Source: Schmidtea polychroa
Taxonomy: Eukaryota
Length of the DNA stretch: 64,000 nt
NCBI GenBank assembly: GCA_044892525.1
Contig: CM097885.1
Coordinates: 3,598,001 to 3,662,000, forward strand
Direction: 5' to 3'
Program-made: the position numbers and the translations under genes
The notes under the pieces: model-generated
Told to the model about the DNA's origin: nothing
The model's input: only the letters and a program-made list of their open reading frames with translations
Databases searched by the model: none
Shown here: piece by piece, positions 3,510 to 6,500 of the stretch
Numbering within the stretch: position 1 is the first letter of the stretch
Layout of the letters: every line of letters begins with the position of its first letter

Positions 3510-6500
3510 CTATATACGTGAGTTTGGAGGGCGCTGAGCGTTCCAGGCCTCCACCCACTGTTCTTGTTTGATATCACTTGGTCGTTTCACTCGATGTTGG
3601 AAATTTCTGATTCGAGTCATCTCTAGTTCTCCGCGATGTCGTTTATCCTTAATTATTTTTATTGTTCCCCCCGTTATGATTAGGAATGCCCCTGTTATTA
3701 TTATCCCACTGATCCACATCATCTGCTTCACGCTTATACTCTCTGGTTTTTCCTTGTTTGTTAATGTTGATATCGCTTCTGTACTTTTCTCGTTTCCTCT
3801 TTTGCCATTTCCTTTCATCATTTCCCGTATTCTTGCTATTTCCTCGTTCATACCCTCCTTTGCCATCTTTTGTATTTTTTCCATCTCTTCCTCCGAAACA
3901 TAGTTGTCCTGAGCTTCCTCACCAGTTTTCTTGTGCTTTCCTCCTTCGTTCTTTTCGTCGTGGTTTTTTCTTTTCTTTCCTCTTTTCCCCGGGTATCGTC
4001 GGCATTCTCTTTTTGATTCATTCCTCCAGATACAAACCGTGTATTCTTTCGGCGGCTGCTGCTGCGTCACATATTGATGGCATCTCTCGCCTGGTCCTAA
4101 TCTTGAAATACAGACTTTGTGCTCTTTTCTAGGTTGGATCTGCGTTATTACTACTTCACCACCTTTTCCTAGGTGTACCTCTTTTCCTTTGACGTTCGTT
4201 ATTCTCTTCCCGTCTCGATTTCGGTATGCTTCTTGTATTCTTACTTCTGTTATTGGTTCTGTGGCCTCATTTATCAGTACTAGTTTCTGATACGCTCTAG
4301 ACATGCATCTTCCTAGTATGCACCTTTCCTTTAAGTCCCATTCTTCCTTTAAATCCCACTGCTGCTCTTGTGCTTGCTTTTTCTTTTCTTGCTTTAGTTC
4401 ATCCTCTTTGCTATCTTGATTCTCCGCTTCTTTGGTTTCTTTTATCGTTCTCGTCCCTCCCTGAGCTGTTACTAACTCTATCATGGTAAGCATAATTATC
4501 ATTAATATCATATTTGTCTCTATTTCTTTGTTAGTGAAAGGTAGGCATACCCTCTGTTTTCCATTATTCGATTTTTCCTCCTCTTTGGTCTTAGTTCCCG
4601 GGCTGTTTCCCTCTCTTTTCGTATCCGAATCCTTGTTTTCCGGTTTACCCTCCTCCTGTTCTCTTTTCTCTTTATCCTCCTTTCGGCCTTTTCCGTTATT
4701 GTCATCGTGTTTATCTCCCCCGCTGTCGTTTAAAATGTCGTCCTCGACATTTATATCGTTCAATAATCTGCGATATGCTGTTAGCACTCTGTTTCTTGCT
4801 AATTTTGCTTCGAATTCAAACTCTTTTCTACCCGTTGCAGCATGTCTCTTTCTATTCCATTCTTTAACTAACTCTCTCAATTGCATACGACGATGTTTCC
4901 CAATTCGTTGTTGCTCGTTCTGATTTTGCGTGAATTTTAGGTCTTCTCTATTTAATACTATTAAAATTATTTTAGGTGTCCCCCCCTTAGTTAGGGTATT
5001 CTTTACCATCGCATTTTCTCCGTTTTCGTAGAATTCGTTTACATTTATCGCATATTTATTATTTTGTGGTACTCTCCAGGTTAATAATAATTTCATTGCT
5101 TCTAGATTTTTCCGTACCGCGTTCCATTGAAACTGAGATGTGTTTTTGCACATATTTTCGACTTCTTCTTTTGTCGCATTTTTGCAAATAAATCTGATCA
5201 TTTCTAAGTTTGGCTGTATGGTTGCCCAGTCCAAGGTGGAATTTCCTTCATTGGACTTTTCGTCTAGTTTCGATCCTGATTGATGTAGGATGTGGAGTGT
5301 TTTTGGGTGTATTTTCGTTATAGCTGCATACATCATGGCGGTTTCACCTTGTTCATTTTTCGTGTTGGTTTCCTCGCCCATCTCTCCAAGGATTCTCACG
5401 ATCGTTATTGCTCTATTTTCTTTCGCTGCTAGTATTGCTTGTTGTAGGGGTGTTCTGGAATCCTTCGTTACCATCGTAAATGCTCGAGGCAAGAAGGTTT
5501 TGATTTTCCCGATATCTAAATCCGTGGTTTGATCTCTTGCGTATGTGTGTACGGCTTTTATTATTTTTGACAATATTATTTCGTCTGGCAGCTCTAGCAT
5601 TTCCTCAAAGAACACTTCTTTTGCTTTGCGTATTATTGCCTCTTGATCTATACTCATTGATTTGGTTTCGATGACGTTGTTTGTGACCGTTTGGTTCGTT
5701 GTTGACTTTGATTCCCTGGATTTCTCATACCTTATTTTCGTTTTCTTTCCGTTTGGATTATTGATTCGTTCCTCTGCTGTAAGTATTTGGATAATATCCA
5801 GGTAATTCTCGCGGATGTTATTCATTGTGTCCATCATATATAACACACTTACCGTTTCCCAATATTTATTTCGTACTTGGTTAGTAAATTGGAATAGGGA
5901 TTTTTCGAATGTGTCGATTCGCTTTTTTGCTAACTGTTCGTCTTTATGATTTGTGAATTTTATCCCTCGTTCTAGTAATTGATTCGGGATTTCGAATAAC
6001 TGATGTCCTTTCATAGCTTCTCTCATCAGCGTGTTCTCTCCTCTCGTGAACGCTTCGTTTACGTTGATCATATAATCGTTTCGAATTGGATTTCTCCATG
6101 TAATTAATATTCCGGTAATTGTCGTCAGTTTTTCTTTGATCGCTGTTAACAATCCATCATACATGTTTCCGACTTCCCGATTGTCCTCATATGATAGTAG
6201 TTCCATCAATGACGTGAACGCCTCGGTACTTCTCCCTTCGATAGCATGATGTAGAGCGTTTTTCCGCTCGTGGTCTTGTGTAGTTATTTTCGATCCGGTA
6301 TCGAGTAATGCGGTTATAATGTCTTTTGTTTTGCCTTTGTTTGCGGCTATCATTAATGGTGTGTAACCTTGGTTGTTTGTTTGTTCTGTTGATCGCTTGC
6401 AGTCGTGAAATGCTTCTATTGTTTCTAGTATTTGCTCGTTGTTACCTACTTTCATGAGTTTGTGTAATGGTGTGTCTCCGTAATGATCTGTTATTGTAAA

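What the first reader, a model, noticed from the sequence alone, without database searches (positions are those of the whole stretch)
3510..6500. Integrase extended by ankyrin repeats and a second type I membrane protein
Seen: after the GPY motif the frame continues ~1,100 aa. It holds two related ankyrin clusters (~5960-6500 and ~5000-5460) sharing LITWR..N.Y.INVNE...GEN.., which points to an internal duplication. Then come a signal-like MILMIIMLTMIELVTAQ, a Cys-containing ectodomain with a repeated (H/Y).VCI.R....R.C motif, a TM (WISGIIITGAFLIITGG) and a short tail. Known: Gypsy IN normally ends with a GPY/F module or a chromodomain. Inference: ankyrins for targeting or IkB-like inhibition, plus a second surface protein.
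Basis: partly seen in the sequence, partly recalled or inferred. Interest (0 to 1): 0.72.

Follow-up and report, generated by a model that had tools for sequence, protein, structure and literature searches.

The report
Giant retrotransposon's second membrane protein
This is a copy of a known giant, virus-like jumping gene of planarian flatworms whose ankyrin cargo was already reported, but its huge protein also ends in what looks like a second surface protein, a slot that related elements fill with unrelated domains and that I did not find described.

Summary
After the integrase GPY motif the frame runs about 1,126 aa through a duplicated ~240-aa ankyrin unit (26% identity), a signal-like stretch, a 249-aa Cys-containing segment, a TM helix and a 46-aa basic tail.

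The element is Burro/GYPSM1-type (planarian GAG-ENV-POL errantivirus): gag with three CCHC, a mononegavirus-like env in frame before PR-RT-RH-IN, plus TRAF, RING and coiled-coil ORFs. Ankyrins are already reported for Burro. They are probably protease-released cargo, not an integrase targeting module: a candidate cut site follows IN, and one relative carries ankyrins between env and protease.

New: 4 of the 6 closest relatives also end in signal + ectodomain + TM + basic tail after IN, with mostly unrelated ectodomains, versus 3 of 69 other Gypsy polyproteins with long tails. The lineage seems to keep a second type I membrane-protein slot in addition to its fusogen. I did not find this in the papers I could read. 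Topology, cleavage and function are inferred, not shown. Verdict: new variant of a known kind.

The parts
3510..7718 (-). Open frame of 1402 aa: IN (CC half of the zinc finger, core, GPY), two ankyrin units, then a signal-ectodomain-TM-tail segment
7713..7720 (-). Frameshift between the HH and CC halves of the integrase zinc finger in this copy; most family depth lacks the break
   Evidence: table 4; table 8 record 8
6790..7718 (-). Integrase: rve core aa 28-125, acidic residues in DVVGP (aa 36), DQGTNF (aa 96) and TERFN (aa 132), GPY at aa 274 (nt 6899)
   Evidence: 52% identity to P0171 IN over 310 aa
6717..6731 (-). RMNMM, candidate protease site between IN and the ankyrin protein (inferred)
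5934..6668 (-). Ankyrin unit 1 (helical lead-in, ANK repeats, shared ITWR..N.Y.INVNE..GEN block)
4911..5627 (-). Ankyrin unit 2, an old internal duplicate of unit 1 (26% identity)
4539..4553 (-). RVCLP, weak candidate protease site ahead of the signal-like stretch (resembles RICLI at the RH/IN border)
4455..4511 (-). Internal signal-peptide-like hydrophobic stretch
3717..4460 (-). Putative ectodomain, 249 aa, 6 Cys, 1 N-glycosylation sequon, a two-copy VCI-R...R-C motif, highly charged; no homolog found
3651..3716 (-). Predicted TM helix
3513..3650 (-). 46-aa tail, 6 K/R in the first 15 residues (positive-inside pattern)
7582..17364 (-). Gag (three CCHC by eye), ubiquitin-like and Bcl-2-like segments (weak), Monjiviricetes-type env, PR, RT, RH, IN HH half; 3260 aa
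2990..3349 (-). 119-aa ORF, no Pfam match
1516..2904 (-). TRAF-like ORF (RING to MATH), 462 aa
   Evidence: MATH E 3.5e-27, RING E 6.3e-05
267..1322 (-). 351-aa ORF that reads as coiled coil (by eye)
18600..19191 (.). 74-bp tandem repeat array in the leader
   Evidence: (family D11)
19767..20252 (-). 161-aa accessory ORF with a C-terminal C3HC4 RING
   Evidence: zf-C3HC4_3 E 3.4e-11
20571..20588 (-). Primer-binding-site-like stretch starting TGG (likeness to a tRNA-Pro site is recalled, not tested)
20596..24454 (-). Candidate 5' LTR of about 3.9 kb with TGTTGGG...CCCAACA ends; holds a 262-aa ORF (21130-21918). The 3' LTR is outside the window, so this is unconfirmed

Best explanation
The region is the C-terminal 30% of the single giant polyprotein (about 4,600 aa across the two frames) of a Burro/GYPSM1-type Ty3/gypsy element. 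The polyprotein crosses the ER membrane twice. An internal signal and a stop-transfer TM place env in the lumen and return the chain to the cytosol for PR-RT-RH-IN. After IN comes a cytosolic tandem ankyrin protein, which the element's protease probably cuts free at RMNMM and near RVCLP. A second internal signal and a TM then make a terminal type I membrane protein, released by signal peptidase. The ankyrin protein is most likely one of the element's host-signalling cargo proteins (with TRAF, RING, Bcl-2-like and ubiquitin-like parts) and acts as a binding scaffold or decoy in ubiquitin/apoptosis signalling, not as an integration-targeting domain. The terminal membrane protein occupies a lineage-wide slot with a swappable ectodomain, most likely a particle- or cell-surface protein that binds a host partner. 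Shown: domains, duplication, family-wide presence, recurrence of the signal/TM architecture. Inferred: topology, cleavage, all functions.
For: Burro likeness: domain order matches PMC6431247 section 7, and env is about 55% identical, counted by eye over about 180 ungapped residues, to Smed_errantivirus_5 in the PMC13524379 supplement. Family-wide: 30 of 30 bins covered in 4 of 4 runs; contigs with about 12-14% substitutions and no gaps cross the IN end and lie in the ankyrin, ectodomain and TM parts (table 8 records 12-15, 18-21, 28-30); of 21 listed post-IN substitutions, 11 are synonymous, 10 non-synonymous and 0 make a stop. Clade: window plus P0171-P0176 form one group on RT-RH (SH-aLRT 99, quick tree, 76 of 133 rows). 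Slot: 4 of 6 relatives have two or more post-IN hydrophobic segments and 5 of 6 at least one, against 3 of 69 non-env polyproteins with tails of 150 aa or more (Fisher p 4e-4, not corrected for kinship). All five tails begin with 6-8 K/R in 15 residues. Ectodomains match only between P0174 and P0175; P0176 has an Ig domain. Modularity: P0171 has ankyrins at aa ~2080-2330, between env and PR. Cut sites: the pattern hits the PR end (aa 2510), the RH/IN border (aa 3093), the IN end and the signal.
Against: No dedicated signal-peptide or TM predictor was run, only hydropathy. The window's ectodomain is very charged, has one sequon and a basic cluster, which is unusual for a lumenal domain. It has no homolog in any search, and its model is low-confidence (pLDDT 47.7). 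P0172 has no post-IN hydrophobic segment, P0176 has only the signal, and the sister P0002 ends 18 aa after IN. The cleavage pattern was designed after seeing the sequence; within this ORF it is not above chance (2 hits, 50 of 500 shuffles as high). The P0171 ankyrins are not clearly closer than generic ankyrins (rank 4 of 152 for unit 1, rank 92 of 149 for unit 2), so relocation versus independent capture is open. The substitutions are the 40 best-supported of 1,542. No run is on record as RNA. The host-signalling role rests on neighbourhood only.
Confidence: 0.68

Rival explanations
1. The ankyrin tandem stays fused to mature integrase and tethers integration to a host chromatin or nuclear protein, like the chromodomain of chromoviruses.
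For: It follows IN in frame directly after GPY, the position chromodomains take. The cut-site pattern is not significant inside this ORF.
Against: RMNMM sits at the IN end and mirrors three [IVM][NR]MM sites in gag-env-pol (0 of 1,000 shuffles as high). None of the 6 closest relatives has Pfam ankyrins after IN; P0171 has them before PR. About 720 aa between IN and a membrane anchor would need cutting anyway.
Confidence: 0.12
2. The terminal segment is a vestige of an ancestral env at the usual post-pol position, or low-complexity read-through with two chance hydrophobic stretches, and has no current role.
For: The 3 control polyproteins with post-IN signal and TM look by eye like ordinary env fusions, so this is the classic env position. 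The window's ectodomain is charged and has no homolog. Only 3 listed substitutions fall there (1 synonymous).
Against: The signal + TM + basic tail layout persists in 4 of 6 relatives at 54-58% RT identity with different ectodomains, one with a recognisable Ig domain. Diverged copies keep the region without gaps. No env-family match appears in the segment.
Confidence: 0.15
3. The extension is an accidental fusion or assembly artefact in one decayed copy.
For: The copy has a frameshift inside IN, and minor contigs show deletions in the region (table 5).
Against: Even family coverage in 4 of 4 runs from 3 studies, gap-free diverged contigs across the IN end, base composition like the rest of the element and unlike the flank, and published ankyrins in Burro.
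Confidence: 0.03

Closest known systems
Burro / GYPSM1 giant gypsy-like LTR retrotransposons of planarians (PMC6431247, section 7 read whole; Grohme 2018 and Jurka 2007 known only through it)
   Same: One giant polyprotein with gag and three CCHC, ubiquitin-like and BCL2-like segments, mononegavirus-like env in frame between gag and pol, PR-RT-RH-IN and ankyrin repeats; MATH/TRAF, RING and coiled-coil cargo; tandem repeats; well over 20 kb.
   Different: TRAF is a separate full-length ORF downstream (in S. mediterranea MATH is inside ORF1; in D. tigrina it is an upstream ORF). No BIR or dUTPase match by Pfam. The text does not give the ankyrin position (figure not visible to me), an ankyrin duplication, or any second signal/TM protein.
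GAG-ENV-POL HSV/gB-type errantiviruses of Platyhelminthes, Smed_errantivirus_1-6 (PMC13524379; passages and rows of supplementary files 1 and 2 read)
   Same: GAG-ENV-POL order; env about 55% identical by eye to Smed_errantivirus_5; listed spans of 14.5-18 kb fit a giant ORF.
   Different: The main text has 0 occurrences of 'ankyrin', 'Burro' or 'TRAF'; in the passages read, the only post-IN domain discussed is the chromodomain.
Unnamed env-in-frame polyproteins P0171-P0176 (ENA/NCBI/JGI)
   Same: Same RT-RH clade, env before PR, IN 45-52% identical; 4 of 6 end in signal + ectodomain + TM + basic tail; P0171 has ankyrins.
   Different: Their ectodomains are unrelated to the window's; P0171's ankyrins are single-unit and lie before PR; P0172-P0174 carry extra aspartic-protease-like domains.
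Chromoviruses (IN with C-terminal chromodomain; recalled, and passages)
   Same: A protein-binding domain placed after the IN GPY module.
   Different: No chromodomain here; the extension is about 1,100 aa, probably cut off, and ends in a membrane anchor.

Membership tests
Burro/GYPSM1 | Gag with retrotrans_gag and 2-3 CCHC knuckles | tested here: met
   Retrotrans_gag E 1.1e-10, zf-CCHC E 6.1e-13; three knuckles by eye
Burro/GYPSM1 | Mononegavirus-like env in frame between gag and PR | tested here: met
   PF24664 E 5.5e-71 at aa 1868-2207, ahead of RVP at aa 2397-2488
Burro/GYPSM1 | PR-RT-RH-IN order in one giant ORF of about 4,900-5,100 aa | tested here: met
   Order. The two frames span 17364 to 3510 (about 4,600 codons); the break between them is absent from most family depth
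Burro/GYPSM1 | Ankyrin repeats | tested here: met
   Ank_2 E 1.5e-21, three stretches
Burro/GYPSM1 | MATH_TRAF_C in ORF1 or in an accessory ORF | tested here: met
   Accessory ORF 1516-2904, MATH E 3.5e-27
Burro/GYPSM1 | BCL2-like and ubiquitin/SUMO-like segments between gag and env | tested here: inconclusive
   Bcl-2 E 0.03 and ubiquitin E 0.011, both below cut-off but in the expected order; P0171 scores ubiquitin E 4.4e-05
Burro/GYPSM1 | BIR domain | tested here: inconclusive
   No BIR match in the 7 ORFs scanned; only a RING in ORF 19767-20252. The element's 3' end is outside the window
Burro/GYPSM1 | dUTPase-like segment between PR and RT | tested here: inconclusive
   No Pfam match; the published call was by HHpred, which was not available
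Burro/GYPSM1 | Total length over 30 kb with paired LTRs | not testable with these tools
   At least 24.4 kb lies in the window; the 3' end runs off position 1 and no genome is held
Burro/GYPSM1 | Direct RT phylogeny with named Burro sequences | not testable with these tools
   No Burro pol sequence was held; only the env rows of the supplement were compared by eye
Type I membrane protein (terminal segment) | Cleavable signal, lumenal domain, single TM, positive-inside tail | tested here: inconclusive
   Hydropathy and charge fit; no SignalP/DeepTMHMM run and no experiment
Chromovirus-type targeted integrase | Chromodomain C-terminal to IN | tested here: not met
   No chromo family in Pfam scans of the ORF
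IkB-like inhibitor | Ankyrin stack that binds Rel/NF-kB dimers | not tested
   The 60 PDB matches shown are generic ankyrin proteins and DARPins; none is an IkB

The most novel reading that the evidence does not exclude
This retrotransposon lineage has a two-protein entry or surface system, like viruses with separate fusion and attachment proteins. A conserved class III-type fusogen sits before the protease, and a second type I membrane protein at the end of the polyprotein has an exchangeable ectodomain (Ig in one relative, Cys-rich in others, a unique Cys-repeat here) that sets which cells, for example stem or germ cells, the particles bind.
Probability: 0.25. Interest if true: 0.78.

Novelty: new variant of a known kind. 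Interest (0 to 1): 0.5.

Why it matters
Ty3/gypsy elements are generally thought to carry at most one envelope gene (recalled). A conserved second membrane-protein slot with swapped ectodomains would suggest how these giant elements choose or manipulate host cells, and it gives a concrete, testable part of a polyprotein that the 2019 review described as only half annotated. The ankyrin cargo itself is known, and its variable position argues against a new integrase-targeting mechanism.

Tried and rejected
No whole genome is held, so copies were judged only through Logan contigs. No RNA holder was listed; run X7 is only guessed to be RNA, so expression is not addressed. Homolog search with aa 300-1402 among longer proteins gave 1 generic ankyrin hit. 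The full-ORF search gave 17 integrase relatives, none with a listed ankyrin domain. The phmmer search of cluster representatives was filled by generic ankyrin proteins; 0 of its 150 best matched the non-ankyrin parts. ESM Atlas gave no usable hit for aa 1055-1402 or 1120-1250. Pfam gave only weak noise for the ectodomain (thionin E 0.008 on the Cys repeat, below cut-off) and nothing for three relatives' ectodomains, so my by-eye impression of fibronectin-III-like strands in P0171 and P0173 is unsupported. The single-sequence model of the terminal segment was poor (pLDDT 47.7) and its fold search matched only long helices, Z at most 5.1. No model of the ankyrin region was obtained. Viral contigs gave no relative. 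Metagenome loci L001-L006 were 32-45% identical; only L002 was read, an ordinary gag-pol element with a signal-like stretch after IN at the contig end. The phage collection gave no match. A programmed frameshift in IN was rejected: 68%, 75% and 90% of depth in X3, X5 and X7 differ from the window at that place, as does the otherwise identical X1 contig; in X1 overall the share is only 10% (57.8 of 586.7). Specific descent of the P0171 and window ankyrins was not shown. The careful tree did not finish; the quick tree is used. Literature: 'errantivirus + ankyrin' gave 0 papers; 'GYPSM1' 1; 'Burro + retrotransposon + planarian' 5; searches listed nothing on a second membrane protein, judged from titles and abstract starts. 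Grohme 2018 was not held; its supplement, Fig. 2A of PMC6431247 and the errantivirus sequence repository were not seen and may already show this feature.

Full report
What is there. The window's first ~24.5 kb is one element on the minus strand, at 39-43% GC against mostly 14-35% in the rest of the window. It has a candidate 5' LTR (24454-20596) and a primer-binding-like site at 20588, a RING ORF, a 74-bp repeat array, a 3260-aa frame (17364-7582), the 1402-aa frame of the finding (7718-3510), and three more ORFs: 119 aa, a TRAF-like 462 aa and a coiled-coil-like 351 aa. The 3' end runs off the window. The 3260-aa frame holds gag, zinc knuckles, a Monjiviricetes-type fusion glycoprotein (E 5.5e-71), protease, RT, RNase H and the first half of the integrase zinc finger.

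The observation. The frame continues about 1,126 aa past GPY, far beyond chance. The two ankyrin clusters belong to ~240-aa units, aa 351-595 and 698-936, aligning with score 181 against a shuffled maximum of 72 at 26% identity. Laid contigs show that 68%, 75% and 90% of depth in runs X3, X5 and X7 lack this break, as does an otherwise identical contig in X1, although only 10% of X1's summed depth there does. It is most likely a private mutation or an assembly error, not a programmed shift.

Is it accidental? No. All 30 bins of window 1-9000 are covered in 4 of 4 runs from 3 studies, with no loss of cover after GPY. Contigs with about 12-14% substitutions and no gaps cross the IN end and lie in the ankyrin, ectodomain and TM parts (table 8). 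Of the 12 indels shown (18 more not shown), only the break and one in-frame 6-base deletion fall in this ORF. Of the 40 substitutions shown (1,502 more not shown), 25 fall in it: 4 of 4 synonymous in IN, 10 of 18 in the ankyrin region and 1 of 3 in the terminal segment, with none making a stop. Contigs cannot prove an open frame in whole copies, and minor contigs do show deletions.

What family. PMC6431247 (section 7 read whole) describes Burro/GYPSM1 of planarians: a 4,873-5,140-aa ORF1 with gag and CCHC knuckles, ubiquitin-like and BCL2-like segments, a mononegavirus-like env in frame between gag and pol, and MATH_TRAF, BIR, Smc and ankyrin motifs. The window matches in order and content; Bcl-2 and ubiquitin hits are weak, and BIR and dUTPase were not detected. 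PMC13524379 (passages and supplement rows) lists six GAG-ENV-POL elements of S. mediterranea; the window's env is about 55% identical to number 5, counted by eye. So ankyrins in such an element are known. Their position in Burro is in a figure I could not see.

Are the ankyrins part of integrase? Probably not. RMNMM sits at aa 330, about 20 residues after the integrase ends, and mirrors three [IVM][NR]MM sites in the upstream frame (0 of 1,000 shuffles as high). A looser pattern also hits the protease end and the RH/IN border (5 hits, 6 of 500 shuffles as high). Inside this ORF alone the pattern is not significant (2 hits, 50 of 500), and it was chosen after seeing the sequence. None of the six closest relatives has Pfam ankyrins after IN, and P0171 has them between env and protease. 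Whether they share descent with the window's is open: the alignment is the longest among the top hits (220 columns) but ranks 4 of 152 and 92 of 149 by score. I read the ankyrins as movable cargo. An IkB-like role is a guess from the neighbouring TRAF, RING and Bcl-2-like parts; none of the 60 PDB matches shown is an IkB.

The second membrane protein. A search with env-pol found six polyproteins with env in frame (P0171-P0176), which group with the window on RT-RH (SH-aLRT 99; quick tree on 76 of 133 rows, every second non-env row plus selected near ones). Of these, 4 of 6 have a signal-like and a TM-like segment after IN, P0176 has the signal and an Ig domain (E 1.5e-05), and P0172 has neither; the sister P0002 stops after IN. 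Among 125 non-env polyproteins with an IN match (137 examined, 132 matched), 69 have tails of 150 aa or more, and 3 have two such segments; by eye these three look like ordinary env fusions. The contrast gives p 4e-4 but is not corrected for kinship. All five tails start strongly basic. The ectodomains are unrelated except P0174 with P0175. The architecture is conserved while the content is swapped, which points to a maintained slot. Against this: only hydropathy was used, the window's ectodomain is charged with one sequon, and it has no homolog or usable model.

How it most likely works. One polyprotein makes four membrane passes: signal and TM for env, then a cytosolic stretch (PR-RT-RH-IN-ankyrins), then signal and TM for the terminal protein. 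Signal peptidase and the element's protease release the parts. The domains and their recurrence are shown; topology, cuts and roles are inferred. My leading role for the terminal protein is host-cell binding beside the fusogen (about 0.25 as a true attachment protein); a surface decoy or a vestige are alternatives.

Verdict. This is a member of a known giant-element family with known ankyrin cargo. The conserved second type I membrane-protein slot was not found in my searches (mostly listings and abstract starts), but Grohme 2018, its supplement and the published figures and repositories were not seen. New variant of a known kind; interest 0.5.

Noticed in passing
window 1516-2904 (-): A full-length, intronless TRAF-like gene (RING to MATH) is carried as a separate ORF downstream of pol; family contigs cover it as evenly as pol.
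   Followed up: partly
window 20596-24454 (-): Candidate 3.9-kb LTR with 7-bp inverted ends that contains a 262-aa ORF (21130-21918) with a hydrophobic N-terminus and no clear Pfam match.
   Followed up: partly
window ~13600-15400 (-): Three segments that read by eye as ubiquitin-like, each after a helical stretch, between gag and the Bcl-2-like region; only one has a weak Pfam ubiquitin hit (E 0.011).
   Followed up: partly
P0172, P0173, P0174: Relatives carry two or three aspartic-protease-like domains, including one directly after integrase.
   Followed up: no
P0172 aa ~1400-1500: C2H2 zinc-finger-like cargo between env and protease, the slot where P0171 has ankyrins.
   Followed up: no
window 1-~100 (-): Another ATG-started frame begins near position 100 and runs off the window end, probably a further accessory ORF.
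   Followed up: no
window 18600-19191: 74-bp tandem array in the leader between the RING ORF and gag.
   Followed up: no
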